The position numbers and the translations under genes were made by a program. From a virus, in the UHGV virus genome UHGV-0213395: 43,313 bases of DNA. The stretch is one strand, 5' to 3'. The notes under the pieces were generated by a model. That model did not search any database. It was not told where the DNA came from and saw nothing but the letters and a program-made list of their open reading frames with translations. This document shows, one piece after another, positions 1 to 43,313 of the stretch (position 1 is its first letter; every line of letters starts with the position of its first letter).

Positions 1-6
1 ATAAGC

Positions 7-1137
7 ATGGCCCGGAAGAAAATAACCGACGAACAGTTACAGGAAGAATTGAACGCCGGTATGAAGAATATCGACATCGCCCGTAAATACGGCATCTCAG
101 ACCGAGTTATTCGTATCCGTAAAGCGAAGCTGGCTAAGAAAGGTGTAGGCCACGGGCGCGACGTCAGCCACCTTGTGCCAGATGGCTACAAGATTAAAGG
201 GACGTCGTCTCTGGTAGACGAGTTCGGCAATACTAAGTTGCAATGGGTTAAGACAGACACCGACGCTGAACGTCAGGTCGAGTTGATGAAAGCCGTGATT
301 GAAGGCATGAAGTCAGAGATTACGCCAGTTGCGCCGGCTAAAGCGACTCGAGCCAAACGCGACGACAAGCTACTCAATCTTTACACGGTATCTGATTTCC
401 ATCTCGGTATGCTTGCCTGGGCCGACGAGAGCGGCGACGACTGGGATATAAAGATTGCGGAAGACCTGTTCTCTCGTTGGTTCGACGCGGCGTTTCAGAA
501 AGCACCGGATGCAGGAACAGGAGTTATTAACCTGCTGGGTGATTTCGCGCACTTCGATAGTCTGGATGCCGTTACACCTGAGTCGCGTCACGTGTTGGAC
601 GCAGACACTCGCTACCAGAAACTCGTCCGCTACATGATTCGTATGGTACGCCGTGTTGTAGATATGGCACTGGTTAAACATAAAAATGTTCGCTTGCTTA
701 TCGTACAGGGGAACCATGACCCTGTAGGCTCTGTATGGCTGGCTGAAATGTTCACAGTTTTATATTCGAACGACAGCCGAGTGATTGTCGATACGTCGCC
801 GGATGTTTACAAGATGGTGCAACACGGAAAAACGACGTTGTTCTTTCACCACGGGCATAAGGCGCGATTCGATGCTATCGAACCGGTTATGATTGCCAAA
901 TTCCGCAAAGCGTTCGGTGAGAGTGTCTATAGCTACGCCCACGTAGGCCACCTGCACCACCAGAAGATTGTAGAAAGCCGTAACATGATTGTTGAGCAAC
1001 ACCGCACCTTAGCGGCTAAAGACGCCTATGCCTCCCGCGGCGGGTGGATGTCAGGCCGTAGTGCAAATGTAATTACTTATAGCGCCGAATATGGCGAGGT
1101 CGCACGTTTAACTATTTCACCGGAGATGCTGGGATGA
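7..1137 (+). CDS. HTH domain fused to calcineurin-like metallophosphoesterase (376 aa)
   Basis: ATG at 7 preceded by GAGGA at window end 43309-43313. N-terminal basic HTH-like segment (ARKYGISDRVIRIRKAKL); phosphoesterase motifs DFH, GDFAHFD, GNHD, HHGH, GHLHH. Antisense to flanking tail genes. Confidence 0.7.
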   Translation: MARKKITDEQLQEELNAGMKNIDIARKYGISDRVIRIRKAKLAKKGVGHGRDVSHLVPDGYKIKGTSSLVDEFGNTKLQWVKTDTDAERQVELMKAVIEGMKSEITPVAPAKATRAKRDDKLLNLYTVSDFHLGMLAWADESGDDWDIKIAEDLFSRWFDAAFQKAPDAGTGVINLLGDFAHFDSLDAVTPESRHVLDADTRYQKLVRYMIRMVRRVVDMALVKHKNVRLLIVQGNHDPVGSVWLAEMFTVLYSNDSRVIVDTSPDVYKMVQHGKTTLFFHHGHKARFDAIEPVMIAKFRKAFGESVYSYAHVGHLHHQKIVESRNMIVEQHRTLAAKDAYASRGGWMSGRSANVITYSAEYGEVARLTISPEMLG

Positions 1138-1364
1138 CTTCAAAATACAACCGAACAATGACAAACACTCACGGCAGCACTATGACCGTAGACGTTTACG
1201 ATGTTCTCCGTGCCTTCGACATCCGTGACCCCGCACTACAGCACGCATTGAAGAAGTTATTGTGCATGGGTCTTCGCGGGCATAAGGACACCGGAACCGA
1301 CTTAGCAGAAGCAATTGAAAGTCTGGAGAAGTTACGGGAGTATCGAAGTAATATTGATGAGTGA
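1134..1364 (+). CDS. hypothetical protein (76 aa), coupled to upstream phosphoesterase gene
   Basis: ATGA start/stop overlap with preceding ORF; followed by terminator hairpin at 1369-1388. Confidence 0.55.
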   Translation: MTSKYNRTMTNTHGSTMTVDVYDVLRAFDIRDPALQHALKKLLCMGLRGHKDTGTDLAEAIESLEKLREYRSNIDE

Positions 1365-1368
1365 GAAA

Positions 1369-1388
1369 AAGGCCCCGAAAGGGGCCTT
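1369..1388. terminator. bidirectional rho-independent terminator (AAGGCCCC-GAAA-GGGGCCTT)
   Basis: Perfect 8-bp GC-rich stem between convergent genes; A-run upstream gives a U-run on the minus strand, AGTTTTA downstream on plus. Confidence 0.7.
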
Positions 1389-1392
1389 AGTT

Positions 1393-2565
1393 TTATGCGT
1401 AGGTGATACGTTGAATTACGATAGACGACTGGTACTGATTGCCGGTAGCCTGGCCTTCAATGGACTGAGTGATTGACTCAGGCCCACCAATCTCAGGTGT
1501 AACCGCCGTAAGCTCTGCACGTTTCAAACTGAAAGACATAGCCCCGTTTACCCCTGCCAGAATAGAGTTAATCTCTACCTGCTGCTCGTTGATAAACTTC
1601 TGAATCATCGCCATGTCGTACAGCTTGCCAGAGATAGAGAATGTGTTAGCTGCGCGTCCACGTTCGACGAACGCCACGCTACTGTTACCGAGTTCGAACT
1701 GCGCGGAAGCTCCGTTGTCGTTGGTGATGGTGAGAGTATCGCAACGCAACGGCGTGGAGCCATCGAACACCGACACATCTACCGACGAGAACGGCTCATC
1801 GGTGAACGTAACCTGAGAGAAATCAGAGCCAGACGGCGGCGCGGTAAGAATCTCCTGACTCAGGCCGATGAACGGGAAGCTGCCGGTGACCATGGCGTTA
1901 ACCGCCTGCTCTACGGTAAAGCCAGAGATTTCCACACCTTTGGTCAGCATGTACGCGTACGGGTTACCACACTGGCCCTTGAACCACGTCAGGATGGAGA
2001 ACGTCTTACACGCGTTACCGGTTTCCAGCTTGTCGCCAGTTTTTGCGTCAGTGGTTACTGTCTCTGCTGTCAGCGTGTGCTGAATACCTGCGCCCGTAAC
2101 TACCAGAGCGGAAACCGCGGTCACGATAAACGGTTTTGCGTTGTCGCCGGTTAAGCCGGTGAACGCAATAAGGTCGCCAACTTCTACACCGTCAGTAATG
2201 AAGCTACCGGCAGCGCGGGTGAATGTTTTACCTGCTGGGGCGACCGTAATTTTGGCGCCAGTAATCTCTACCCCAGCTTGCCACGTAGAAGTCATCGCTC
2301 CCGCAAGGAAATCATCCTGGCTACGAGAGCTAAGTTCGATGGCATACTCCCCGCTAACCTGCTTGTTACCGGTTCGGATGGATGTAGTTTCACGGCTGCC
2401 GTCCAGTTCGTTGGAAGTCAGTGCATCGCGGGTTACAGCGGGAACGCCGCCCGTGTTACGCAACGGCGACCATACCGGGTTAGTCGGTGTTACGCCAGGG
2501 GTAGTTTCCACCACATAGAATTGCGCGGTATTCGCGCCCTTAAAAGGAGTTGTAGCCATATTCAC
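1393..2565 (-). CDS. major tail (tube) protein candidate (390 aa)
   Basis: Last large gene of the head-neck series, in the position of the tube protein ahead of chaperone and tape measure genes; Thr/Gly/Val-rich. Positional call. Confidence 0.5.
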   Translation of the reverse strand: MNMATTPFKGANTAQFYVVETTPGVTPTNPVWSPLRNTGGVPAVTRDALTSNELDGSRETTSIRTGNKQVSGEYAIELSSRSQDDFLAGAMTSTWQAGVEITGAKITVAPAGKTFTRAAGSFITDGVEVGDLIAFTGLTGDNAKPFIVTAVSALVVTGAGIQHTLTAETVTTDAKTGDKLETGNACKTFSILTWFKGQCGNPYAYMLTKGVEISGFTVEQAVNAMVTGSFPFIGLSQEILTAPPSGSDFSQVTFTDEPFSSVDVSVFDGSTPLRCDTLTITNDNGASAQFELGNSSVAFVERGRAANTFSISGKLYDMAMIQKFINEQQVEINSILAGVNGAMSFSLKRAELTAVTPEIGGPESITQSIEGQATGNQYQSSIVIQRITYA

Positions 2566-12037: not shown

Positions 12038-13309
12038 TTAAAGTGCGAAAGTCACCGGGACGTTAATAACTGGTTTGCGAATCGGCATTTCATACGCGAT
12101 AGGGTATGTGGTTCCATCATTCTGGTGGTCCACACCGCCTGATTTATCCGGTTCGCCGTTCTTGTCGTAAGCCTGTTGCTCCAGGCATCGTGCGGTAACA
12201 GGGCAAGCCTGTTCATTAATCATGACCATACCAGATTCAAGCGCCTTATTCATCGCCGCTACGCGGTCTTTAACCGGTGGGTTTGTCGATTTAGCGCGCA
12301 CTTCGAAGCCGGCCTGCTGTAACTGGGCAATATCAGATGTGCTGGCGTTGTTACTTTTACGGTTTTTACCGCTTGCGTCGGGGTACATAACGATATAGTG
12401 GCCCTTACTTTTCCAGCGCTCTGTTACGGCTCTCACCACATCGGGCGTATCGAACATATCCACCAACTCGGCGACTGCATGCCAGACTTTGCCACGTTGC
12501 ACGTAAACTGTACTAGCCATGTGGCCTACGTTAAAGTCCTGCCCGATATACAGAGTCTCGCCTGGTTTTATTGTTTCGCGGCTGCTGTTTTTCCTGCGGT
12601 CATAGGCGTAATAGACAGTCCCCGCCGTCAGGTTGACGAACTCGCCGTTGATGTAGGCGTCAATCAACTGACCTGGGTATGTGTCGCGTAACGACTGCAC
12701 ATAATCTTCTGGCAGGAACGGGTTAGACAGGGTGGACGCCTGAATCATCTCGTAGCCTGGATTCTTTTTGACTACCCAGCGGTCATGTACGAAACGGAAT
12801 CCTTCCGGGGTAGTGAACACGGAAACGGTATTAGCAGGTTTCGGTGTAATAGGTTTATATGTCCGCGGCAACTGGCGGTTACGGGCGATGACTTTGTTCC
12901 ACGCGTGCTCGGCGTGCTCCATGTTAAGGGTGTCCAACTCGTCGATTTTCGCACGAAACGATTCGTAGCCAACGATTCGTGCTGGATTATCAAGTGTACG
13001 CAGAACAAAATCCCCAAATTGTCCGGAAGACGTATAGATTATGTTGTCAGACTTGTTGTATTTGTACCGGATACCCCAGTCGGTGAGCTTTTCTTCCATA
13101 CGCGGTGCAAGGATGAGGCGCACCAGGTCATAAGTCGGCTCATACATGGCGATGATAGAATCGCTACCACCTTCCATGCTGTCGAGTAGTGCAGAGTTGC
13201 ACATAACTTCGGATTTACCCGTACCGAAGCCAGCTACGAATGCCGGAAACTTGCAATGCATACCGAGAAACGCGCCTTGCGGCTCCGTTGCCGTGATATT
13301 AACGTTCAC
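12038..13309 (-). CDS. terminase large subunit (423 aa)
   Basis: N-terminal Walker A-like GFGTGKSE; overlaps small terminase ORF; precedes portal. Confidence 0.75.
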   Translation of the reverse strand: MNVNITATEPQGAFLGMHCKFPAFVAGFGTGKSEVMCNSALLDSMEGGSDSIIAMYEPTYDLVRLILAPRMEEKLTDWGIRYKYNKSDNIIYTSSGQFGDFVLRTLDNPARIVGYESFRAKIDELDTLNMEHAEHAWNKVIARNRQLPRTYKPITPKPANTVSVFTTPEGFRFVHDRWVVKKNPGYEMIQASTLSNPFLPEDYVQSLRDTYPGQLIDAYINGEFVNLTAGTVYYAYDRRKNSSRETIKPGETLYIGQDFNVGHMASTVYVQRGKVWHAVAELVDMFDTPDVVRAVTERWKSKGHYIVMYPDASGKNRKSNNASTSDIAQLQQAGFEVRAKSTNPPVKDRVAAMNKALESGMVMINEQACPVTARCLEQQAYDKNGEPDKSGGVDHQNDGTTYPIAYEMPIRKPVINVPVTFAL

Positions 13310-13808
13310 CGGACACCACCTTAATTGTTACTTCGCTGATTGGCTCGTCGCGTACTTCTTCGGCGACAACTGTTTTATTCAGGCCCAGTTTCGCGGCAGC
13401 AAACGTAGCAGAGATGCCCGCGGCCCCCGTTTCAGTGAAGTATGCCTCTTCCAGCGCCTGTGCTGTCTCCCAGGCTTCTGCAAATGCGGGAATCTCACGC
13501 AGCCAAAGCTTAATAATCGGGATAGTGACTCCGATGTGTAAGGCGAAGCGGGCCAGTGACGGTGGTTTATCCTGAATCAGCGGGCGTTCGTCACCCTTAG
13601 ACGTAGGCACAAGCTCCCACGACGTGCGGTCGAAGAACTCGATTAGTGCATCGCAATAGCCCGGGTCCCACAACGCGGCGGAATTACGGGATGATTGATA
13701 AAGGCTCTGTCTACCGCGCGGTCGTTTACGGCGACGGTTTGCGCTAACAGCTTCTTCATGTGCAGCTTGTACCACCTCTGGCGATGGCTGCTTAAGTTTC
13801 AGCTTCAT
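13299..13808 (-). CDS. terminase small subunit candidate (169 aa)
   Basis: Start moved to ATG at 13808 (AAGGGGA SD); basic N-terminal region; first gene of the structural operon. Confidence 0.5.
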   Translation of the reverse strand: MKLKLKQPSPEVVQAAHEEAVSANRRRKRPRGRQSLYQSSRNSAALWDPGYCDALIEFFDRTSWELVPTSKGDERPLIQDKPPSLARFALHIGVTIPIIKLWLREIPAFAEAWETAQALEEAYFTETGAAGISATFAAAKLGLNKTVVAEEVRDEPISEVTIKVVSGER

Positions 13809-13874
13809 AGAATCCCCTTGCATATGCGTCTGACCATCAGAGCGCACCAGACGCGCCCTACGCGTCTAAAGGGA

Positions 13875-32897: not shown

Positions 32898-34829
32898 TTA
32901 AGCTATAGATGGAGTTTGACGCCAATTCGCCCCGTCAAAAACGTACATTATAGTGTCTCCGCCCGCAATGGTCTTACCAACCGCCCCGTTATTTGCGATT
33001 CCACCAGACCCTGGATTATGGTTCATAACGAACGAGATAGCGGATGCGTTTCGGATTATTAGAAGAAAACCTGGCTTAACCGGCTGACCATAGTCGTCAT
33101 TAATAGCAATACTGCTGAATGAACTGCCGGCGGATATCGCGGTGACAGACACAACCCCAGAGGGCCCCAAACTGTCGCCAACAATCATTGTAGCCGCAGC
33201 GCCGCTAAGATTCTGTTCTTTATACCCCGGCCTAGGTTTGCCGTTTCCTATTACTTTCGCCTTAACAGATGATAATCTATTATTAAGATAACTGTTACCG
33301 AGATTCATTGTCATTAGGTCACTGCGGTATTGACGGACTAGTTGGATATTTGACCCGCTAAAAAGCCCTACGGCGGCGCTAACCTCAAACGCAGTATCGG
33401 CGGGAGCGCCAGGTTTCAGGGACCCATAGAATCCTGTTACCATCAGTTGTTCACAGAAACCTGCAGCCATAAATTTCTGGCTATTTACTGCGGTTATACT
33501 ATCTAAACTAACATTGTGCAACGTGCCAGCCGAAGTGCCTTCGACGAGCACATCCGCATAAGTAGATCCTGAATAATTTGCCCCAACAATTTGCACGTCA
33601 TTAGCTACGTTTTCGGACTTAATCCGCATATGTATAGCGGAATCGATGCTTTGTAAGTTTGCGCAGGTAATACGCTCAAGTTGTGCGGTTGTGCTGTAAA
33701 TCCAAACACCTTGACTGGAAACACCATTACCGACATTAATGTGCCCGTCCAGCACCACATTTTTTGCCGTGCTGAACTCACTATCAGATTTAATGATAAC
33801 GCCAGTATCACAGCTTACGGTTATTACGCCTCTGGCAACAACGTTTCTTGACTTAATCGCGAGGCCAAAAAGATTATAACCGCCAGTTATTTGAGATACA
33901 TGCGCGGAATCGTAGCCTTCAACAAGAACGCTGTGGTACGGGTCCGAACCGGAAAGGCCCGCGGCAACTACATCTTGAACAATACAAGACCCACCAGCAT
34001 AGTTATCGGTCGATAACACCAGACAATCTCCGGGGGAGCCTGTAGGCCTACGCACACCAAGTGACTTAATAATCACCTGGCTTGCGGAAAATCTTAAATT
34101 GCCAATTATAACAGACCCGTTAGACATAGAATTGGAGATAAGATTGTAATCAGGACGTCTGTCACCGATTATTGTTACGGGTGAAGTTATAATACCGCCA
34201 TTCCAAACATAAGATTTTGCGGGGATTCTTAACGCGATACCGTTGCTTGAGCAATAGTCAATAGCCTGTTGCAAAGGCGCGGTGTCGTCGGTAACACCAT
34301 CACCCACCGCGCCGAAATCATCGGGTGTCATATACCCTATTTTGAAATGGTCAACCTCGCCTTGCACTGTGCGACCCGAAGACGTACCGACTAGCCCTGC
34401 GCCAGTGCTTAGGGCCAAATCACGGCGCAATGCAGCTTCACTAACGGAAACCCATGCGGTCTGGCCTACTCCGCCCGTAGACGCCGGGGTTGAAGATGCC
34501 GGGATGGTTTTTGGCAGGGCACCTTTCCATGCATAATAGTTGCCGTCGCCTGATGGCCCTGGCCACAACACCGCCAGGTCAGCGTCGTTAACGCCCAAAG
34601 TCCCACCTGTTTCGAATGTGAATGGCGCAGGTCTGAACCCGGCGTCACGCAACACGGCCGGGAGCGTCTTCTGAGTCTGCCCTGTAACCTGATTTGTCGC
34701 GTAATCGATATCAGCACCCGTAGCTACACCGCCAGCTTTACCGGTGATAACCTCGGCTTCAAAAATTTGGTGTTTCTTGGCGGTTTGTAAATCCGCCAGG
34801 CTTAAAACGTCACCGCATCCGCTTGACAT
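32898..34829 (-). CDS. tailspike / tail fibre with beta-helix (pectate-lyase-like) domain candidate (643 aa)
   Basis: Last gene of tail module; Gly/Asn/Ser/Thr-rich repetitive composition typical of right-handed beta-helix receptor-binding proteins. Confidence 0.6.
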   Translation of the reverse strand: MSSGCGDVLSLADLQTAKKHQIFEAEVITGKAGGVATGADIDYATNQVTGQTQKTLPAVLRDAGFRPAPFTFETGGTLGVNDADLAVLWPGPSGDGNYYAWKGALPKTIPASSTPASTGGVGQTAWVSVSEAALRRDLALSTGAGLVGTSSGRTVQGEVDHFKIGYMTPDDFGAVGDGVTDDTAPLQQAIDYCSSNGIALRIPAKSYVWNGGIITSPVTIIGDRRPDYNLISNSMSNGSVIIGNLRFSASQVIIKSLGVRRPTGSPGDCLVLSTDNYAGGSCIVQDVVAAGLSGSDPYHSVLVEGYDSAHVSQITGGYNLFGLAIKSRNVVARGVITVSCDTGVIIKSDSEFSTAKNVVLDGHINVGNGVSSQGVWIYSTTAQLERITCANLQSIDSAIHMRIKSENVANDVQIVGANYSGSTYADVLVEGTSAGTLHNVSLDSITAVNSQKFMAAGFCEQLMVTGFYGSLKPGAPADTAFEVSAAVGLFSGSNIQLVRQYRSDLMTMNLGNSYLNNRLSSVKAKVIGNGKPRPGYKEQNLSGAAATMIVGDSLGPSGVVSVTAISAGSSFSSIAINDDYGQPVKPGFLLIIRNASAISFVMNHNPGSGGIANNGAVGKTIAGGDTIMYVFDGANWRQTPSIA

Positions 34830-34841
34830 ATAGAGTCCTCT

Positions 34842-37409
34842 TTAATTAAAACCATTGCTGAATCCGTCGGAGAAACCGCTGCCGTATGGCGCGACGCCGT
34901 CGTATTTATAGAATCCGTCATCATAGTTGTAGCCCGTAATCTTGACCGTGCGGTCGTCGCCGGGGTCGATTGAAGAAACAACTATCTTCTGAGCATTATG
35001 CCTTGCTTCGTTGCCGAATGAAAACTCAGTTTTTAGCGCACTATTCCCCGTGTAGATTGCCTCCTCCGGCGCGGAGAGCATAATCACTTCGCGGTCGTGG
35101 CTTCCTTTGATAACAGAAATACTCTGCACAGAGCCGTCGCGCTTCTTAAGAATGATGGAATGGTCATCACCAGGAGTAAACGTAACCGGCTGCGACAGCG
35201 TAAGCGTAAGCCCATTAACGGCGACAACATAACCATCCTGCGGCGCGATGCGGGAGCCTTTAACCACGCTGATTACGCCGCCGGGAGTAGCTAGAGCGCC
35301 TTCTTCGGTAGCTTCGAACTCTACGACAACTTTACTTAACGCATTGCGCTGGTAGCGACGCCACGCCAGCCAGTACGCTTGCTGATAGTTACGTACACCC
35401 TTCGATTCGTACTCCTCGGTGTTCGCGCCGAGTTCTTCCGGGATATAAATCGTCTCCTGTACGTTTGTATCCGGGTCAATGTACGAGAACGACAGGCTAT
35501 CGTAGGTTGTCGAATCGTTGAACGTGCGCGTCCATTTCTCCGTACCGGTCGTTTTGCTGCGGTGGGTGAAAACCATCTCAGGCCCCGCAACAGGACGGTC
35601 GAATCGCAGCATAATATCAGCACCTTTACGGTATGCCGTACAAAACACGGCTTCCGCGATGGTCTGAACGATGTCTTGCATGGTTGTGTCGTAGTCGTCG
35701 AATGTGTAGCAGAACTGCCCGGCTAATTCACTGTCAAAATACGACTCAATTTCTTCCTGCACGGCAAGTAACTTGTCCATATTTGCCGTTGTCAGTTCCA
35801 GATTACCCACCACAGGGTCACGCGCCAGCCTGATTAGCGACTGCACGGCCTGAGTGTTCGGTGTCATTACCGTATCGAATACGCCGTTACCTAAGTATTT
35901 GTAGCACATCTCGGTAGCAATCATGCGCAGTTCCGGTTCTGACACCTCCGCGGCACGTGGCGTTTGTTTACGAGCGCAGTGTACGGTGGTTCTGTTGCCG
36001 TAGTGTGGGGTTGTGTCCAGAGACTGCCCGTACAGATTAGTGAAAGTAACCTCATCACTAACAGTACCTTCAAAATCTTTATCGGTGTCGGAAACACGAC
36101 GCATACGGGCGCGGAATCTGGAAGCAGTTGGTAAACTTCCGTAAAGAGTAATACCTGTGTAATCCGTGTTCCGGCCTGTTACGGTTCCTTGTACAGTAAA
36201 TATATCACCTACAGGCTGTTTCAGCTCATCAACCATCTGGTATTGCAGTTCCACTGTCACTGAAGCGCGGTTATAGTCGCCGTTGTATTTATACATGCCG
36301 TTGCTGGCGGCGACATTGGCTACAACACGGTCGACAGTACCGCGGGTGATGTACGCCCATTCAGAGAGAGAAGCCGCGTAAGTGTCCGCCGGGCCTATAA
36401 GATGGTTACCCTCTTCACCTATAAACCACACAGACGCCCCTAGCTGGTTCCATACTGATTGATTTGTACTGACGTCCACAATAAGGGTGGTTTCACTAAC
36501 CGAAAGAACCGTGTACCTCCCGTCCAGGTTAACCTCATTACCCAAAGACCCTGGGGTTGTATCTGCATATACGTTATCGAAGTATGCCAGGTCCCCGACC
36601 GCCAAAAACTCATCGAAACCAGCGTCATCGCCTACTACAACGCCGGTTGTTCCCTGCCGCTGGACAGTGTAGTCCTGCACGTCTATAGCGATATCATTAG
36701 GGGCGGGAAGAACAGCGCCATCGACATCGGCGTTTTTAAATGTAACGTACAATTTCTGGTCTATAGGGTCGCCGATATGCAATTGTGGTGTGCTGGTGTT
36801 ATTCGGCGAAGTGTAAGGAGAATACACCGTCACCGACGAGCCAGTTATCTCGCTGATTCGGGTATCTGCCTCAGTTACACCGTCTTCCTCAATATGCAGA
36901 TACCCTCGACCGGCGTCATAGTACGCATATTCAATAAGCGCACCCGCGGCATTAAACACCTTATATGTCTGCATCAGGTCATTGGGGATGGTCTGCACTG
37001 TCCCGCAGATATCATAGGAACGCTCATAAGGTCGTGGCTTGTTTGAGCGGTCGGTGAGACTGTTGTTAGGCGACGTAGCCTGATTGTTGGTAGCGGAATA
37101 ATTAGCGTTAGCCGCTGTGTTTAGCCCGAACAATTTGGCGATTGGCTTAAGGATGAAACTGAATACACTCCCGATGGCGTCGCCAATGCCGCCGCCAGCG
37201 CCCTCAATAATGTGGTACACGGCGTCCTCGTCTTTGAGCGCGTCGAAGTCGTCTGTAACATCAGTATCATCACCAATCTCGCCAAGATAGACGCGTACCG
37301 GAACGCCGTCCGGGATACGGTTAACGACAAACTCCATCGGCATCCCGACGTGTTTTGTACGGTTGAAAGCGCCATCAGCGTTTCGCGTGTAGTGCAGGAT
37401 TATCGCCAA
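34842..37409 (-). CDS. central tail fibre / host specificity protein (lambda J-like, 855 aa)
   Basis: Large tail-tip gene following the K-like peptidase gene; lambda-type order. Confidence 0.6.
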   Translation of the reverse strand: MAIILHYTRNADGAFNRTKHVGMPMEFVVNRIPDGVPVRVYLGEIGDDTDVTDDFDALKDEDAVYHIIEGAGGGIGDAIGSVFSFILKPIAKLFGLNTAANANYSATNNQATSPNNSLTDRSNKPRPYERSYDICGTVQTIPNDLMQTYKVFNAAGALIEYAYYDAGRGYLHIEEDGVTEADTRISEITGSSVTVYSPYTSPNNTSTPQLHIGDPIDQKLYVTFKNADVDGAVLPAPNDIAIDVQDYTVQRQGTTGVVVGDDAGFDEFLAVGDLAYFDNVYADTTPGSLGNEVNLDGRYTVLSVSETTLIVDVSTNQSVWNQLGASVWFIGEEGNHLIGPADTYAASLSEWAYITRGTVDRVVANVAASNGMYKYNGDYNRASVTVELQYQMVDELKQPVGDIFTVQGTVTGRNTDYTGITLYGSLPTASRFRARMRRVSDTDKDFEGTVSDEVTFTNLYGQSLDTTPHYGNRTTVHCARKQTPRAAEVSEPELRMIATEMCYKYLGNGVFDTVMTPNTQAVQSLIRLARDPVVGNLELTTANMDKLLAVQEEIESYFDSELAGQFCYTFDDYDTTMQDIVQTIAEAVFCTAYRKGADIMLRFDRPVAGPEMVFTHRSKTTGTEKWTRTFNDSTTYDSLSFSYIDPDTNVQETIYIPEELGANTEEYESKGVRNYQQAYWLAWRRYQRNALSKVVVEFEATEEGALATPGGVISVVKGSRIAPQDGYVVAVNGLTLTLSQPVTFTPGDDHSIILKKRDGSVQSISVIKGSHDREVIMLSAPEEAIYTGNSALKTEFSFGNEARHNAQKIVVSSIDPGDDRTVKITGYNYDDGFYKYDGVAPYGSGFSDGFSNGFN

Positions 37410-38280: not shown

Positions 38281-39681
38281 TTAACCGTCCACATTAAAAT
38301 CAATACGAGTGATGTACTTGCTACCCCACGCGGAATCAGCCTGCGGGATGGTTGCGTAATCATCTGCCGCCAGAACGTTTACCACAGAGCCGTCGGAATA
38401 GGTAATGTCGATGCTTGTCGCGCCGTTCATTGCCACTTTTGCTGATGCCGTTGGACGAGTTACCGGTGACTCCTCGGTCACTATCGGGGAGGAGGCAAAC
38501 TCTGAAGGCTCCATCTGGATTAGGGCTATAATGAACCCACTGACATCATCCCCTGTGAAGGTGAGGGAGTTAGACGGAGACAACATGTTTATCTGCGAAT
38601 AAATCAATCCGCCGGAGTCGTTAGTGTCCGCTGACATTGAAACGTGATACCACCCACCACCAAGATTGCTTACGAACGACCTTGAGGTGTCGCCTGATAT
38701 CAAATAGCCGGAGGCTAAGTCAACATAGGCATACTGGAAATTATCTAAAGCGGCTCGGTTGCCGATGACTACCGCTGCCGACTGGTACTCATCTGCTTTT
38801 ATAATAGCACTAATAGAGTATCTTGTTTCTTGTTCTGGGGCCTCTGCCTTGTTTATATAATGGTTACCTGATACCGACGTTGCGGTTAATTTAGCAGCAT
38901 AAGTTTCTTGGAATAACGCCAAAGAACTCGCCGTGGTTGTTGTTCTGGTACGTGAAAATGATGTAGATAGTAAGTTGTTAGAATGTTCTACCACATTGGT
39001 AGCAGCCTTTTCCGGCGGCACACGCCCAACTGCAGTTCCGTCAATAAACGTAAGAGGCCATTCATTAGTGGCGGACTGCACAAGATTGCCGTTGCGGTTG
39101 ATGTAATAAACCTGCGGCCCTTCATACACAATGCGGCTATCAAGAGTCGACGCCAGAAGGTTAATCGGCGGATATCCGGCAGGGCCTTCATTACTCCAGA
39201 TTCGTGGAAACGTTGATTGCGCGGTTCCGTAGGCTTTAAGGAAACACCCCAGCCCGTCACCATAGCAACCATACAAATCCGGCAGATTATTGACAAGACA
39301 CTGGTTCTCGAGGTCCTGGAACGGGGATTTCTCGGCGGTTGCCGTGAAAGTAATCGTCCAGTTAATGCCGTCTTCGGTGGACTCCGCGATGGTGGACGTG
39401 ATGGTTACCTGATAATCTTCAATACCCATGCCGAAGTCATGCGCCATCCAGAAACTTGACGCGCCGCCGTCCACTTTCTCAAGGAACGACAGGAACGCCT
39501 GTCGCCCTAGTGCAGATGTAATCAGAGTTACGCTTATTGGGAACACATCATAATACGTGTCACGGCCTTGACGCACTCCGCCACCGGCTAAATCTACACT
39601 CCAGACGTTGTTGCGTCTGGTCATTGAGTAGCCTTTCGATACCACCGGCTTAAGGCTACGTGGGAAATATAAGTCGCTCAT
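38281..39681 (-). CDS. tail tip protein (distal tail protein candidate, 466 aa)
   Basis: First gene after tape measure, 1-nt overlap with its stop. Positional call. Confidence 0.5.
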   Translation of the reverse strand: MSDLYFPRSLKPVVSKGYSMTRRNNVWSVDLAGGGVRQGRDTYYDVFPISVTLITSALGRQAFLSFLEKVDGGASSFWMAHDFGMGIEDYQVTITSTIAESTEDGINWTITFTATAEKSPFQDLENQCLVNNLPDLYGCYGDGLGCFLKAYGTAQSTFPRIWSNEGPAGYPPINLLASTLDSRIVYEGPQVYYINRNGNLVQSATNEWPLTFIDGTAVGRVPPEKAATNVVEHSNNLLSTSFSRTRTTTTASSLALFQETYAAKLTATSVSGNHYINKAEAPEQETRYSISAIIKADEYQSAAVVIGNRAALDNFQYAYVDLASGYLISGDTSRSFVSNLGGGWYHVSMSADTNDSGGLIYSQINMLSPSNSLTFTGDDVSGFIIALIQMEPSEFASSPIVTEESPVTRPTASAKVAMNGATSIDITYSDGSVVNVLAADDYATIPQADSAWGSKYITRIDFNVDG

Positions 39682-42008
39682 TATTTAAACCCCGGCGCAT
39701 TTCTTGTGGCCTTGCGGGCCTTGCTAATCTTACTGTTACTGTTCTGCAAAGAGGCAGCCACTTGCTCCTCGATGATGATACGCAAACGGCCTTCATCATC
39801 TTGCTCAGTGGATACGTTGCCGATTTGAGAACTCGTGTTGTTTACGATAGTAACATTAGACGGTCCGGAAGAAGACCCGTTTTGCCCCATAATTTCTTTC
39901 ATCTGCTGTGCGGTGCGTACACGTGACGCACCAGCGGGCATGATAACTTCTGGTTTACCGCGTTCGGCGATGGTTGAAGCCTGCCCCGCGGATAACTGTC
40001 CGCCCTGTTCACGTGCGGACCTGATAGCGGAAATCTGCGCCATACCCGCCCCAACGGCAGCAGCGGCAGCTACAGGAGCCAGGAACGGGCCAACTACAGG
40101 GATAGCCGCTGTTGACTTATACGCCTCAATAGCCGCGGTGTACGTGGCTATAGTGGCCTGCACGATAGCGAATGCCTTGTACGCGCCAGAAGCCTCGCCC
40201 AAAGCCGAACCGATGTTTGAGGCCATGTTACCGAAGGCCGTTGCCGTTGCGTCGGCACGCTTCGTGGCGTACTGCTCGTTGATGGCATTAAGCGCAGCCT
40301 GATACTGCTTCTCACTAATCAAACCCTGCTCGCGGTACTTATCTGCTACCGACAGTTTCTGCTGTTCCTGGATGTCGAGAAGCTCAAGCTCAGCGGCGTT
40401 CTGACCCATAATCTGGGCCATGAAGTCGTCGCCTTTCTGCTGCTTTTCCTGCTGCTCTTTTCTTTTCTTATCCAGTTCTTCCTGTCTGGCCTGCTCGGCG
40501 GTGAGCATAATTTGAGTTTTGGCGTTTTCGTACTGCTGCTGGCTTATCGTTCCGGCGCGGTTGAACTCTTCAAGTTTCGCCAGTTTCTGTTCTTCTGCCG
40601 CTGTGATACGTGAAATTTCGTCTCCGGTTGTGCGGTCGACAGTAGCCAGGAAATCTTCCGCCGCTTTTTTCTGACGTTGTGCCGCTGTTTCTTCGCGTTT
40701 GGCTTGTGCCGCCAGACGTTCCTCGTTCGATTTAGCCTCGCGGTCGGCCTTCTCTTTCTCGGTCTTGTCAATGCGGGCGATGTCTTGCTGCGCTTCCGCG
40801 TCGCGGGCCGCATTATACGCGGCTATCTGTTCTTTGGTGACGGCTTCACGTTTAGCGAACGCCTGTTTATCAAGTTCAGCTTGCGCCCGGATACGCTCAC
40901 GGTCGCTTAAGATGGCGATTTGCTGGTTTTTGACGATAGCTTCGTTCTGTTCCTGGAATCTCTGCGTGGTTGAGTTGACGTTGCGACCAAGATTCTTTTG
41001 GGCCTCTGCCGCCGCGTTTGCTGACTTCTCCGCGTTCTCCAGTGCCGTGGCGTTCTTGTTGGCGTTGTCCGTCAGGCGGATAAGTTCCGGGTTCAACTGT
41101 TTTGTGTTACCGAGCCAGTCGGTAAACACATCGGCGATGCGACGGGCATTCTCGGCGGTTGGCTCTTTGTTAAACGCACTCTGCGCCGCTATCATCTCCA
41201 GCGCCTGGTCACGGTTAACTCCGAACTTACTGCTAAGCTCCGCGATATTCTGCGCCAGCATGTTGACGCCTACGATGTTGCCCTCGTAAGTGCCGCCGAG
41301 TTTTTCTAATGTGTCGCCTACATCTGCGCCCTTAGAGACTAATGCATCATACTGGCTAATCGCCGATGCCGTGGAGGCTTTCCACGTTTCCCATGATTCG
41401 GCATCTTCACGAACAGCTTTAGCGGTTTGCTGCGCGATAAGGTCCGCGTTAGCCTTAGCCAGAGCAAGCTGAGTCTCCGCTGCTTCTCTGCTGATTTGGG
41501 TAAGCTGGATAAGGCCGTCTGTCAGCTCGAGAGAGCCAGATGCCGTTTGCTGGAAAGTATCTTTTAACTGTTTCTGCGCGGCTTCGAGGTCTTTTGAACT
41601 GCCTTCTGCTTCGGTTAGTGATTTATACAGTACTCCACCAACAGCCGACGCTAGTGCGATTACGGCCCCAAGCACAGCACCACCAGGGCCGAAAGCACCC
41701 GCAAGTTGCGAACCTTGCTGGCCTATTGCCACAAATGCTGACGTACCGGATTGCAGCTGGACAACCATGTCCTGCACCTGGAAGCCTACCTGCCCGGCAG
41801 CGTTACGGAACTTAGCGAAACCGTCAGAAGCCGCTTTAGACGTAGCGGAGTTTACTTTATTAACGTCCGGAGTCAGCTTGTTTACCGCGGTATCAGCGCG
41901 GTCTGCAGACGACGCCATAGCGTCAAGCTGTTTGGCAGCTACGTCAGCACCTTCTGTTTTTACTCTGGCGATTAGGGAAGCCGTATCAGCCATCTTCTCT
42001 GCCCTCAA
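39681..42008 (-). CDS. tail tape measure protein (775 aa)
   Basis: Long Ala/Gln/Glu/Lys-rich helical protein with a Gly/Ala-rich hydrophobic C-terminal region; preceded by chaperone ORF pair. Confidence 0.8.
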   Translation of the reverse strand: MRAEKMADTASLIARVKTEGADVAAKQLDAMASSADRADTAVNKLTPDVNKVNSATSKAASDGFAKFRNAAGQVGFQVQDMVVQLQSGTSAFVAIGQQGSQLAGAFGPGGAVLGAVIALASAVGGVLYKSLTEAEGSSKDLEAAQKQLKDTFQQTASGSLELTDGLIQLTQISREAAETQLALAKANADLIAQQTAKAVREDAESWETWKASTASAISQYDALVSKGADVGDTLEKLGGTYEGNIVGVNMLAQNIAELSSKFGVNRDQALEMIAAQSAFNKEPTAENARRIADVFTDWLGNTKQLNPELIRLTDNANKNATALENAEKSANAAAEAQKNLGRNVNSTTQRFQEQNEAIVKNQQIAILSDRERIRAQAELDKQAFAKREAVTKEQIAAYNAARDAEAQQDIARIDKTEKEKADREAKSNEERLAAQAKREETAAQRQKKAAEDFLATVDRTTGDEISRITAAEEQKLAKLEEFNRAGTISQQQYENAKTQIMLTAEQARQEELDKKRKEQQEKQQKGDDFMAQIMGQNAAELELLDIQEQQKLSVADKYREQGLISEKQYQAALNAINEQYATKRADATATAFGNMASNIGSALGEASGAYKAFAIVQATIATYTAAIEAYKSTAAIPVVGPFLAPVAAAAAVGAGMAQISAIRSAREQGGQLSAGQASTIAERGKPEVIMPAGASRVRTAQQMKEIMGQNGSSSGPSNVTIVNNTSSQIGNVSTEQDDEGRLRIIIEEQVAASLQNSNSKISKARKATRNAPGFK

Positions 42009-42347
42009 ATATTCCGTCTAAGCCCATGATAACCTCGGCTTCGAACAAACTTATGCCGTAACCGGCGACATCACGAAACGCTACCAAATCTTGCCATTTG
42101 AGCGCATCGCGCGGGATTATAACGATAGTATCATCTGTTTCGCGCTGTAGGAATTTAATGGCACGGTATTTCTCGAACACGTCGATAAGAGAAACGGGGC
42201 ATTCTGGCCCCGTCGCTTCTTTCATCTGCGGTTCTTTAATCACGCCCATTGCAATCAAAGCCGCCTGGTGGCCCGCCGCGATGTCGTCGAATTGCTTACG
42301 TTTGTGGCGGTCGACAAAGCACCATTGCGCAAATTCATACAGCGCTT
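41986..42347 (-). CDS. tail assembly chaperone T-frame extension (expressed by -1 frameshift from the G frame)
   Basis: -1 frame is open from the G stop through to an overlap with the tape measure start; the track start is only a TTG. Confidence 0.45.
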
Positions 42348-42764
42348 TTACTTTTCCGAGAGTTTCTCACGGCTATCGGTGTGATGCTTAACTACGGCCT
42401 CTGCCAACCCACTGTACTGGTCGAACAGGTTAGCAAGCGCCTCTTTGCTGAATGGTTCGTCGAATGACCAACCGGTGACGATTTCCACGGCAAGCTGCTT
42501 GTTCAGGTCCATCACCCGCCAGCCCTTCTCATCATTATAGCGCGCCCAGTTATTCAGCGCCTCGCACTCTTTATCTAATGGCGCAAGTTCTTCCGTAAGG
42601 CGTCGAATTGCCGTTGTGTAGGCACGGCCCGCACGAACACCAGCGTCACAATCGGGGCCGATGACCTGCAACCATTCACCGGAATCTTTACCACTGGGCA
42701 GAAGGATAGGCATTTTAGTACCGGCGGCGTGGCGGTCGGCAAAATAGAAATCAGAAAGTTTCAT
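42348..42764 (-). CDS. tail assembly chaperone (G-like, 138 aa)
   Basis: Immediately upstream of tape measure; ends ...SEK with GGAAAAG heptamer at the stop. Confidence 0.55.
   Translation of the reverse strand: MKLSDFYFADRHAAGTKMPILLPSGKDSGEWLQVIGPDCDAGVRAGRAYTTAIRRLTEELAPLDKECEALNNWARYNDEKGWRVMDLNKQLAVEIVTGWSFDEPFSKEALANLFDQYSGLAEAVVKHHTDSREKLSEK
42351..42357 (-). other. candidate -1 programmed frameshift site GGAAAAG
   Basis: Heptamer is rc of plus CTTTTCC, occupying the last two G-frame codons before TAA; the -1 frame is open downstream. Confidence 0.4.
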
Positions 42765-42871
42765 TCTTTAGTCCTTTGGTTAAGAGGTTACTGGTTATGG
42801 TTAATGCGCCAGGCGGGAACCACCCGCTTTTCGTGTGCGACACTAGGCGCAAACTTATTCTAGCACACTAC

Positions 42872-42900
42872 TTGCACACCCCAATATAATAGGGTACTAT
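42872..42900 (+). promoter_or_regulatory. conserved early promoter, copy 2 (TTGCAC-N17-TACTAT)
   Basis: Identical over ~33 bp to the copy at 8681-8709; GAGG SD and ATG 42929 downstream. Confidence 0.55.
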
Positions 42901-42928
42901 TCACATGTAACTTACTGAGGAAATAATT

Positions 42929-43255
42929 ATGCGTAAATTAGTACTAGCTCTGGGTTTTATGTCTTTTGCTACTTTTGGGGCCCCGTGCGAACAGGTATTT
43001 AGTGAATCTGTTCTTATGACTTCTGGTGTGCTTGATAAAGCCGACCCTACTATTGTAAAGGCATTTAAGGACTCCACAGTCCGTGAATGCGAGGCCGCCG
43101 TAGATGTCGGTAAATCGGGCCTACCTCCGCAAGCCGTAACATACACGGTAATACGTTCGGTAGAGAAAACCGGAGACGCGTTTTACAGCCTTCTGACAGC
43201 CACCCGTCTGCAAATGGTAATGACTGGATGGGCAATAGGCGCAGAAAGTAAATAG
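42929..43255 (+). CDS. small secreted/periplasmic protein (108 aa, signal peptide)
   Basis: MRKLVLALGFMSFATFGA then PCEQ: cleavable signal peptide without lipobox; two Cys in the mature part; lower GC than flanks. Confidence 0.6.
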   Translation: MRKLVLALGFMSFATFGAPCEQVFSESVLMTSGVLDKADPTIVKAFKDSTVRECEAAVDVGKSGLPPQAVTYTVIRSVEKTGDAFYSLLTATRLQMVMTGWAIGAESK

Positions 43256-43313
43256 TTGCCTTTATTTAAAGGAATCCACTGTGGTTAAATAGGACAAATC
43301 CTAAGCACGAGGA

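What the first reader, a model, noticed from the sequence alone, without database searches (positions are those of the whole stretch)
42765..43313. Window ends appear contiguous: an operon runs across the window boundary
The secreted-protein gene ends at 43255 and a Shine-Dalgarno GAGGA at 43309-43313 is followed, across the window junction, by a 6-nt spacer and the ATG at position 7. The tail module is likewise split (chaperone and tape measure at the right end, major tail protein at the left end). This is expected if the window is a circularly permuted, complete ~43.3 kb genome.
Basis: inference. Interest (0 to 1): 0.5.

Follow-up and report, generated by a model that had tools for sequence, protein, structure and literature searches.

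The report
Arbitrary cut in circular phage genome
The two ends of this window are neighbouring bases of one complete Kagunavirus-type E. coli phage genome that was opened at an arbitrary point, between a ribosome-binding site and its start codon, which is ordinary for phages of this group.

Summary
The window is a complete 43,313-bp genome of a Kagunavirus (Guernseyvirinae) E. coli siphophage. Rotated to the terS start and reverse-complemented, it is collinear end to end with phage Bas70, and one 19.7-kb alignment runs straight through the old window junction. An in-silico join of the last and first 400 nt is found as a single uninterrupted piece in 32-33 phage records. It is base-for-base identical at the join to phages hz69 and fFiEco02. 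No related record ends there, and the window has no terminal repeat. The cut falls between the GAGGA Shine-Dalgarno (43309-43313) and the ATG at 7, and it breaks no coding sequence. The unit that straddles it is a conserved + strand cassette of three genes: a 108-aa signal-peptide protein, a 376-aa metallophosphoesterase and a 76-aa ORF. A promoter region and a strong hairpin terminator (1369-1388) bound the cassette, which sits antisense between the tail tube gene and the chaperone/tape-measure genes. Co-transcription is inferred and was not measured. Headful (pac) packaging is inferred from TerL relatedness and from published data on relatives. It cannot be shown without reads. This is ordinary and already known.

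The parts
42765..42928 (.). Divergent intergenic control region between the tail assembly chaperone gene (-) and the 108-aa gene (+). It holds promoter-like sites on both strands (+ 42900-42927 TTCACA-16-AATAAT; - 42911-42883 GTTACA-17-TATATT), a conserved hairpin with a T-run at 42813-42833 (+), and the SD GAGGA at 42917-42921 for the 108-aa gene.
   Evidence: Promoter scan. The region is almost invariant across 8 relatives and is kept in phages that carry a different first gene. Promoter function is inferred, and the number of scan hits does not exceed the shuffle expectation.
42929..43255 (+). First cassette gene: a 108-aa protein with an N-terminal signal-peptide-like segment (MRKLVLALGFMSFATFGA|PCEQ) and two conserved Cys residues (20 and 54). 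Function unknown.
   Evidence: ORF. PHROG 14165, unknown function, E 5.5e-55. No Pfam family. Hydrophobic N-terminus and Cys positions. 59% identical to the Jerseyvirus homologue, with both Cys kept. Found in 99 phage records, all Guernseyvirinae-type Escherichia, Shigella or Salmonella phages.
43256..43313 (+). Right-hand part of the 64-nt intergenic spacer, which continues into positions 1-6. It contains the conserved block 43289-43313 and the Shine-Dalgarno GAGGA at 43309-43313 for the gene that starts at 7.
   Evidence: Sequence. Alignment across the join with 8 relatives. The block is conserved even where the upstream gene is replaced. No terminator and no structure beyond chance.
1..6 (+). 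Left-hand part of the same spacer: ATAAGC, the 6-nt SD-to-ATG spacer.
   Evidence: hz69 and fFiEco02 have the identical ...GAGGAATAAGCATG. Six other relatives have one extra G, giving a 7-nt spacer, as part of a linked haplotype.
7..1137 (+). Second cassette gene: a 376-aa calcineurin-like metallophosphoesterase, annotated in relatives as 'DNA repair exonuclease', phosphatase or DNA pol II small-subunit-like. It has an N-terminal extension of about 120 aa.
   Evidence: PHROG 704, E 1e-162. The Pfam Metallophos_2 and Metallophos matches are weak and below the curated cut-off. Annotations of relatives.
1134..1364 (+). Third cassette gene: a 76-aa ORF whose ATG overlaps the stop of gene 2 (ATGA), with GGAG 8 nt upstream. 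It matches only the C-terminal ~70 residues of longer PHROG families.
1369..1388 (.). Hairpin terminator (AAGGCCCC-GAAA-GGGGCCTT) with T-runs on both strands. It lies between the convergent cassette (+) and the tail tube gene (-).
   Evidence: + strand. (the same hairpin called on the - strand in hz69). Fold of -29.4 kcal/mol, z -6.46. Minus-strand T-run.
1393..2565 (-). Tail tube (major tail) protein gene.
   Evidence: Pfam Phage_tube_2, E 8.3e-38. Annotated as tail tube protein in relatives.
41986..42764 (-). Tail assembly chaperone G ORF (42348-42764) with a -1 frame extension down to 41986, the putative G-T frameshift product.
   Evidence: Pfam Phage_TAC_4. Joined frameshift CDS annotated in fFiEco02, K1H and fPoEco01. 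Frames.
39681..42008 (-). Tape measure protein gene.
   Evidence: ORF. Annotated as tape measure in all relatives.
12038..13847 (-). Terminase genes: TerL at 12038-13309 and TerS at 13299-13847. Curated relatives (the BASEL records) start their records at the TerS start, and a pac site would normally be expected near here.
   Evidence: Pfam Terminase_6N and 6C. PHROG 3064 and 10250. Bas70 position 1 corresponds to window 13847. The pac location is an inference from general knowledge of P22, SPP1 and P1.

Best explanation
The window is the complete genome of a virulent Kagunavirus-type (Guernseyvirinae) E. coli siphophage. It was assembled as a circle and written out linearly from an arbitrary point. 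That point lies in a 64-nt intergenic spacer, between the Shine-Dalgarno GAGGA and the ATG of a metallophosphoesterase gene. Base 43313 and base 1 are therefore neighbours in the real molecule. The unit that straddles the cut is a conserved three-gene + strand cassette (108-aa signal-peptide protein, 376-aa metallophosphoesterase, 76-aa ORF). It is most likely transcribed from the divergent control region at 42765-42928 and ends at the bidirectional hairpin at 1369-1388. The cassette sits antisense inside the late structural gene array, whose order on the - strand (terS ... tail tube | cassette | chaperone, tape measure ... tailspike) is continuous only on the circle. The assembly closes because these phages package by a headful (pac) mechanism. 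Virion DNAs are then terminally redundant and circularly permuted, with no fixed ends. Shown here: contiguity of the ends, genome completeness, gene layout and its conservation. Inferred: co-transcription, promoter identity and packaging mode.
For: Closest relatives are Kagunavirus phages at 93-99% identity. In hz69 the two window ends map to 22201|22202, and in fFiEco02 to 15149|15148. The join is identical to both at base level. After rotation, 18 collinear HSPs cover 95.7% of the window and 95.6% of Bas70, and one 19.7-kb HSP crosses the old junction. The joined 800-nt query is a single piece in 32-33 records. More distant Kagunavirus hits (query 376-800) and Jerseyvirus hits (172-800) also cross position 400|401, and no record ends there. 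There is no terminal repeat or overlap. An in-frame TAA lies upstream of the ATG, so no CDS is cut. Cassette limits: promoter-like site, no terminator or structure in the spacer, ATGA overlap, strong terminator. The same layout occurs in Salmonella Jerseyvirus ST521_1PHIH2. Where gene 1 is swapped for an Imm-like gene, the promoter block and the SD block are retained, so the metallophosphoesterase gene stays behind the same upstream region. Packaging: TerL is 88.9% identical to that of Kenya-K52 and 41% identical, over 94% of the protein, to Dhillonvirus TerL. This mirrors what is reported for Kenya-K47, which PhageTerm called P1-like headful, with a circular-like restriction map and a broad PFGE band (PMC10783031). 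Jerseyvirus SeF1 gave 'redundant, random, permuted' (PMC9409062). Shashou was predicted pac (PMC6776780). fBC-Eco01 showed no termini (PMC9825357). K1G and K1H TerL cluster with headful packagers (PMC5582158).
Against: No reads or virion-end data exist for this genome, so the packaging mode and the absence of a physical end at the boundary are indirect. Numbers of sigma-70 and terminator scan hits do not exceed the shuffle expectation. The best-scoring + promoter hit (42900-42927) ends 2 nt before the ATG at 42929 and would leave no leader, so the true promoter is not pinned down. No transcript data exist. TerL has no detectable sequence match to any solved structure, so the link to model headful terminases rests on published phylogenies.
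Confidence: 0.93

Rival explanations
1. The window boundary is a real physical genome end (a cohesive end, a fixed direct terminal repeat collapsed by the assembler, or a record deliberately opened at a mapped pac cut).
For: Sequence alone cannot exclude it, because no reads are available. Some GenBank relatives are flagged 'linear' (hz69, KMB35), although their ends lie elsewhere.
Against: The cut lies inside a ~30-nt block, between SD and ATG, that is conserved in both allele types. There is no repeat or overlap at the ends. No related record ends here. Relatives with termini analysis are headful/permuted or show no termini (PMC10783031, PMC9409062, PMC6776780, PMC9825357). The terminase genes, where pac sites usually lie, are 13.8 kb away.
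Confidence: 0.03
2. The ends are contiguous, but the genes on either side are not one operon. The metallophosphoesterase gene would have its own promoter within or after the 108-aa gene, so the SD-ATG split is the only thing the boundary separates.
For: Operon status rests only on layout and consensus scans, which are weak evidence. The first gene is a swappable module, so the downstream genes must function with different upstream sequences.
Against: No promoter-like site lies on the + strand between the start of the 108-aa gene and the metallophosphoesterase ATG in hz69 or in the window. The spacer is only 64 nt, unstructured and without a terminator. In the swapped allele the conserved sequence next to the ATG is only ~30 nt, which is enough for an RBS but not for a full promoter plus leader.
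Confidence: 0.15
3. The window is an incomplete or chimeric piece (a prophage fragment or a mis-joined contig), and its ends only appear to match.
For: None found.
Against: The length matches the family range of 41-45 kb. After rotation every Bas70 module is present in the same order. The best relatives are virulent phages, and a complete set of structural, lysis and replication genes is present.
Confidence: 0.01

Closest known systems
Kagunavirus genomes (Guernseyvirinae), e.g. Escherichia phages Bas70-Bas76, hz69, fFiEco02, K1H, XY2
   Same: 93-99% nucleotide identity and the same gene order. The same cassette (108-aa gene, metallophosphoesterase, small ORF) lies between the tail tube gene and the chaperone/tape-measure genes. 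The sequence across the window join is identical in hz69 and fFiEco02.
   Different: The linearisation point and strand differ: BASEL records start at terS, and others start elsewhere. There are mosaic differences in the early-gene region and in the variable segment after the metallophosphoesterase gene. There is a 1-nt indel in the SD spacer. The window itself is not in the phage collection; the best relative over 24 kb is 97% identical over 93% of the query.
Headful (pac) packaging with terminally redundant, circularly permuted virion DNA, as in P22, P1 and SPP1 and as reported for Jerseyvirus Kenya-K47
   Same: The assembly closes into a circle without fixed ends. TerL is of the same type as in Kenyan Jerseyviruses shown to be headful (PMC10783031).
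   Different: No experimental or read-level evidence exists for this genome. The pac site has not been identified. TerL has no direct sequence match to P22, P1 or SPP1 terminase structures.
T4 Imm-type superinfection immunity genes (Pfam PF14373) in the same slot of sister phages (fPoEco01, fBC-Eco01, many Jerseyviruses)
   Same: Same position: the first gene of the cassette, directly upstream of the metallophosphoesterase gene. Same size (~109 aa). Both are predicted to go to the cell envelope.
   Different: There is no detectable sequence similarity. The window protein has a cleavable-looking signal peptide and a helical soluble domain rather than the Imm membrane domain. A shared function is only a guess from position.

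Membership tests
Kagunavirus / Guernseyvirinae genome | High nucleotide identity and collinearity over the whole genome with recognised members | tested here: met
   95-98% identity in 18 collinear HSPs covering about 96% of both genomes against Bas70. Top hits are all Kagunavirus records.
Kagunavirus / Guernseyvirinae genome | Genome size of 41-45 kb with siphovirus structural genes and a tailspike downstream of a J-like tail protein | tested here: met
   43,313 bp. The tailspike ORF at 32898-34829 lies next to the 855-aa tail protein ORF at 34842-37409 and matches the Bas70 annotation. Family size range from PMC11990801.
Circular-closing assembly opened at an arbitrary point | The last and first bases are adjacent in independent related genomes, and the join restores coherent features | tested here: met
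   The SD and ATG are restored with a 6-nt spacer, and the late-gene order is restored.
Circular-closing assembly opened at an arbitrary point | No duplicated sequence left at the two ends | tested here: met
   No prefix/suffix overlap of 4-400 nt. The head and tail k-mers are unique.
Headful (pac) packaged, circularly permuted, terminally redundant virion DNA | Read or end mapping shows no fixed termini (apart from a possible pac peak), with reads spanning every point | not testable with these tools
   No reads are available. Relatives: SeF1 redundant/random/permuted (PMC9409062), K47 P1-like headful (PMC10783031), Shashou pac (PMC6776780), fBC-Eco01 without termini (PMC9825357).
Headful (pac) packaged, circularly permuted, terminally redundant virion DNA | TerL belongs to a clade of headful packagers | tested here: inconclusive
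   TerL is 88.9% identical to Kenya-K52 and 41% identical to Dhillonvirus TerL, matching the relationships reported for headful K47. The clade assignment itself comes from published trees (PMC5582158, PMC10783031) and was not recomputed here. There are no PDB sequence hits.
Headful (pac) packaged, circularly permuted, terminally redundant virion DNA | Circular-like restriction map with a submolar pac fragment, and a diffuse PFGE band | not testable with these tools
   This is experimental. It has been reported for K47 only (PMC10783031).
Bacterial-type operon (single transcription unit) | Same-strand genes with short gaps or overlaps, each with its own RBS | tested here: met
   The gap is 64 nt with GAGGA, the overlap is 4 nt (ATGA) with GGAG, and GAGGA precedes gene 1.
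Bacterial-type operon (single transcription unit) | No internal terminator, and a terminator after the last gene | tested here: met
Bacterial-type operon (single transcription unit) | A single promoter upstream and one continuous transcript | not testable with these tools
   There are only consensus-level promoter candidates, and the hit count is within the shuffle expectation. No RNA data exist.
T4 Imm-type superinfection immunity protein (for the 108-aa protein) | Match to Pfam PF14373, or sequence similarity to members | tested here: not met
   There is no Pfam hit even at E <= 1. BLASTP finds no alignment to the fPoEco01 Imm-like protein.

The most novel reading that the evidence does not exclude
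The first gene of the boundary-spanning cassette (108 aa, signal peptide, conserved Cys pair, no known family or fold match) occupies exactly the slot that in about 350 sister phages holds a T4 Imm-type superinfection immunity gene. It could therefore be an uncharacterised periplasmic superinfection-exclusion or envelope-modifying factor, expressed from an antisense island inside the tail gene cluster. The evidence neither excludes nor demonstrates this reading. The window-end contiguity itself has no novel reading left.
Probability: 0.25. Interest if true: 0.35.

Novelty: already known. Interest (0 to 1): 0.07.

Why it matters
This result mainly matters for bookkeeping. The window should be treated as a circle, so features near 1 and 43313 (the RBS of the metallophosphoesterase gene, the three-gene cassette and the tail gene array) must be read across the join. 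A linear-only annotation would miss that the gene at 7 has its RBS at the other end. The result does not bear on any open biological question. Circular assemblies of headful-packaging phages, and this exact gene layout, are already documented in dozens of deposited genomes.

Tried and rejected
The following leads gave nothing useful.

1. I looked for the window's own record in the phage collection, to read its topology and annotation. It is not there; the best relatives are 93-99% identical.
2. Sequence searches of TerL and of the metallophosphoesterase against solved structures gave no meaningful hits. A direct tie to model terminases was therefore not possible.
3. A single-sequence AlphaFold model of the 108-aa protein (pLDDT 69, all-helical) was compared with the PDB by Foldseek. 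The best E was 2.2, so nothing is usable.
4. Rfam at gathering threshold on the window and on the junction-spanning hz69 locus gave no family. The tRNA scan found none.
5. GC and AT skew follow the coding strand and show nothing special at the boundary.
6. Literature searches for 'MB78 ... permuted' and 'Jersey-like ... circularly permuted' returned nothing in the held library.
7. I considered that the 1-nt difference at the join relative to Bas70 was a base lost on circularisation. I rejected this because hz69 and fFiEco02 share the same state together with linked flanking variants.
8. I considered the tool's best + promoter hit (42900-42927) to be the promoter. I did not adopt it because it would leave no leader or SD; TTGCAC-17-TACTAT at 42873-42901 is my own alternative reading of the sequence and is untested.

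Full report
**Observation.** The coordinates in the finding are exact.
- The ORF at 42929..43255 (+) encodes 108 aa.
- The last five bases of the window are GAGGA (43309-43313).
- Positions 1-6 are ATAAGC, and the ATG at 7 opens a 376-aa ORF, 7..1137.
- In the joined sequence the codons upstream of that ATG read TAA GCA CGA GGA ATA AGC ATG. The frame is therefore closed by a stop at 43302-43304, and no coding sequence is cut. Only the ribosome-binding site is separated from its gene.
The tail tube gene is at 1393..2565 (-) (Pfam Phage_tube_2, E 8e-38). The chaperone is at 42348..42764 (-) (Phage_TAC_4). The tape measure gene is at 39681..42008 (-).

**Identity of the sequence.** Both window ends match Kagunavirus-type E. 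coli siphophages (subfamily Guernseyvirinae) at 93-99% identity. The BASEL phages Bas70-76 are the closest over long stretches. The window itself is not in the phage collection.

**Are the ends contiguous?** Yes, on several independent lines of evidence.
- In hz69 the last window base maps to 22201 and the first to 22202. In fFiEco02 they map to 15149 and 15148.
- A base-level alignment of the in-silico join with eight relatives shows that ...CACGAGGA|ATAAGCATGGCCCGG... is identical to hz69 and fFiEco02. Six other phages carry one extra G (AGGAAGTAAGC) together with linked flanking substitutions. The 1-nt difference is therefore a natural haplotype and not a base lost on circularisation.
- An 800-nt query made of the last 400 and first 400 bases is found as one uninterrupted piece in 32-33 records. 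More distant Kagunaviruses (query 376-800) and Jerseyviruses (query 172-800) also align straight across position 400|401. No record ends at this point.
- The window has no prefix/suffix overlap and no terminal repeat.
- After rotating the window to the terS start (13847) and reverse-complementing it, 18 collinear alignments cover 95.7% of the window and 95.6% of Bas70 (43,265 bp). One 19.7-kb alignment at 97.8% identity passes through the former junction.
- In related records the junction lies at many different coordinates (about 5 kb, 9 kb, 13-15 kb, 22 kb, 25 kb, 29 kb and 39 kb, on either strand). Linearisation points in this group are therefore arbitrary or set by convention.

**What straddles the cut.** On the - strand the late genes run in this order: terS (13847), terL, portal, head genes, neck, tail tube (ending at 1393), and then, across the join, chaperone (from 42764), tape measure, distal tail genes and tailspike (ending at 32898). 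This canonical siphovirus order is continuous only on the circle.

Between the tail tube and chaperone genes lies a 1.9-kb + strand cassette. This cassette is what the window boundary actually cuts.
- Gene 1 (42929-43255) has GAGGA 7 nt upstream.
- Gene 2 (7-1137) has GAGGA 6 nt upstream.
- Gene 3 (1134-1364) overlaps gene 2 by ATGA and has GGAG 8 nt upstream.
- The 64-nt spacer between genes 1 and 2 has no terminator-like site. It folds no better than shuffled sequence (z +0.63).
- Immediately after gene 3 comes an 8-bp GC-rich hairpin at 1369-1388 (-29.4 kcal/mol for the 81-nt stretch 1340-1420 that contains it, z -6.46). It has T-runs on both strands, so it looks like a bidirectional terminator between the convergent cassette and the tail tube gene.
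- Upstream, the 164-nt region 42765-42928 is almost invariant among relatives and holds promoter-like hexamers on both strands.

The same layout is present in the Salmonella Jerseyvirus ST521_1PHIH2: tape measure and chaperone (-), a 109-aa gene, the metallophosphoesterase gene and a 76-aa ORF (+), then the tail tube gene (-). Its 109-aa protein is 59% identical to the window protein, and both cysteines are kept.

The operon reading is therefore coherent and conserved, but it remains an inference. The counts of promoter and terminator hits are within the shuffle expectation, and the best-scoring + promoter hit would leave no leader.

**Gene products.**
- Gene 2 is a calcineurin-like metallophosphoesterase (PHROG 704 'DNA repair exonuclease', E 1e-162). 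Its Pfam matches are weak and below the curated cut-off.
- Gene 1 has a hydrophobic N-terminus ending in FGA|P, which aligns with SFA|H in the Jerseyvirus homologue. It has two conserved Cys residues and no Pfam family. Its PHROG has no assigned function. A moderate-confidence all-helical model found no significant match among solved structures. 'Secreted' is a reasonable reading.
- Gene 3 matches only the C-terminal third of longer PHROG families.

**Packaging.** TerL (12038-13309) carries Terminase_6N and 6C.
- It is 84-89% identical to TerL of many Salmonella Jerseyviruses, including Kenya-K52. It is about 41% identical, over 94% of its length, to Dhillonvirus TerL. The Kenyan study reports the same relationship for K47 (41.4% at 94% cover) and more than 90% protein identity among its Jerseyvirus isolates.
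- For K47 that study reports PhageTerm 'P1-like headful', an EcoRV pattern matching a circular map, and a broad PFGE band (PMC10783031).
- Jerseyvirus SeF1 gave 'redundant, random, permuted' (PMC9409062).
- Shashou, described as similar to Guernseyvirinae, was predicted pac (PMC6776780).
- Kagunavirus fBC-Eco01 showed no termini (PMC9825357).
- K1G and K1H TerL cluster with headful packagers (PMC5582158).

Headful packaging is therefore the expected mode, and it explains why the assembly closes. For this genome it is an inference, because no reads are available.

**Rivals.**
- A real physical end at the boundary is very unlikely. The cut lies inside a conserved RBS block, there are no repeats, no relative ends there, and the terminase genes are 13.8 kb away. 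Only read mapping can exclude it.
- Independent transcription of genes 1 and 2 remains possible (about 15%).
- An incomplete or chimeric window is excluded by the end-to-end collinearity.

**Comparison with what is known, and verdict.** This gene layout is annotated in dozens of deposited Kagunavirus and Jerseyvirus genomes. Circular assemblies opened at arbitrary points are routine for headful-packaging phages. The finding is correct and useful for reading the window as a circle, but it is ordinary and already known.

The only mildly interesting by-product concerns the first cassette gene, which sits in an exchangeable slot. About 99 records carry the 108-aa signal-peptide protein. About 350 carry an unrelated Imm_superinfect (PF14373) protein at the same place. 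The swap edges lie just after the conserved promoter block and at window 43289. By position alone, this hints at an envelope or exclusion role for the 108-aa protein.

Noticed in passing
window 42929-43255 (+); compare L009 2165-2494: The first gene of the cassette is an exchangeable slot. This window and 98 other Guernseyvirinae records carry the 108-aa signal-peptide protein. About 350 records, such as fPoEco01 and fBC-Eco01, carry an unrelated ~109-aa Imm_superinfect (PF14373) protein in the same place. The swap edges are sharp: one lies after the conserved promoter block, and the other is at window 43289.
   Followed up: partly
window 42798-42890 (+): A 30-aa ORF is annotated as a hypothetical protein in Bas70, Bas75 and KMB35. 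Its ATG is AAG in XY2, fFiEco02, K1H and SZH-1, so it is probably not a gene. The annotated start of the Imm-like CDS in fPoEco01 lies in this same conserved non-coding-looking block, because residues 1-34 of that CDS hit the intergenic region of XY2, BUCT789 and L AB-2017. That CDS may therefore be annotated too long. An internal ATG preceded by AGGAG would give a protein of about 60 aa.
   Followed up: partly
window 42813-42833 (+): A conserved hairpin, GCGGG-AACCA-CCCGC followed by TTTT, lies inside the divergent control region. It is oriented like a + strand terminator, although no + strand gene lies upstream of it. On the - strand it would fall in the 5' leader of the chaperone and tape-measure transcript. 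Its role is unknown.
   Followed up: no
window 41986-42764 (-): The tail assembly chaperone G ORF ends ...TCG GAA AAG TAA, with no canonical XXXYYYZ heptamer. The -1 frame stays open from there to 41986 and overlaps the tape-measure start. Some relatives annotate a joined frameshift product (fFiEco02, K1H, fPoEco01). The Shashou paper notes the lack of a canonical slippery site (PMC6776780).
   Followed up: partly
window 1134-1392: The segment between the metallophosphoesterase and tail tube genes varies among relatives. This window has only a 76-aa ORF that matches the C-terminal ~70 aa of ~235-aa PHROG families. K1H has a kinase-phosphatase plus a 184-aa protein. fFiEco02 and fPoEco01 have two small ORFs plus an HNH endonuclease on the opposite strand. 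hz69 has three small ORFs.
   Followed up: partly
window 1369-1388: This strong hairpin has T-runs on both strands and looks like a bidirectional terminator between the convergent cassette and the tail tube gene. If it is efficient on the - strand, the downstream tail genes (chaperone, tape measure and onward) would need their own promoter. A candidate lies at 42911-42883 on the - strand.
   Followed up: partly
window 12038-13309 (-): Two TerL types circulate within Guernseyvirinae. The window type is shared with Bas71 (99.8%), many Salmonella Jerseyviruses (84-89%) and MB78 (82%). A second type, only ~54% identical, occurs in phage Jersey, fPoEco01 and P AB-2017. The terminase module has therefore been exchanged across the two genera. 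In the BASEL records this TerL is annotated 'hypothetical protein', and terS is annotated 'terminase'.
   Followed up: no
window 43309-43313 + 1-9: The SD-to-ATG spacer of the metallophosphoesterase gene is polymorphic. It is 6 nt here and in hz69 and fFiEco02, and 7 nt (one extra G) in six other relatives. The state is linked to substitutions 12 nt upstream of the indel and at codon 4.
   Followed up: yes
window 7-370 (+): The metallophosphoesterase has an N-terminal extension of about 120 aa ahead of the catalytic domain. Residues 3-36 give a weak match to a PHROG of late transcriptional activators (E 8e-4) and, in my own reading of the sequence, look like a helix-turn-helix. This suggests a DNA-binding module fused to the phosphoesterase.
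   Followed up: no
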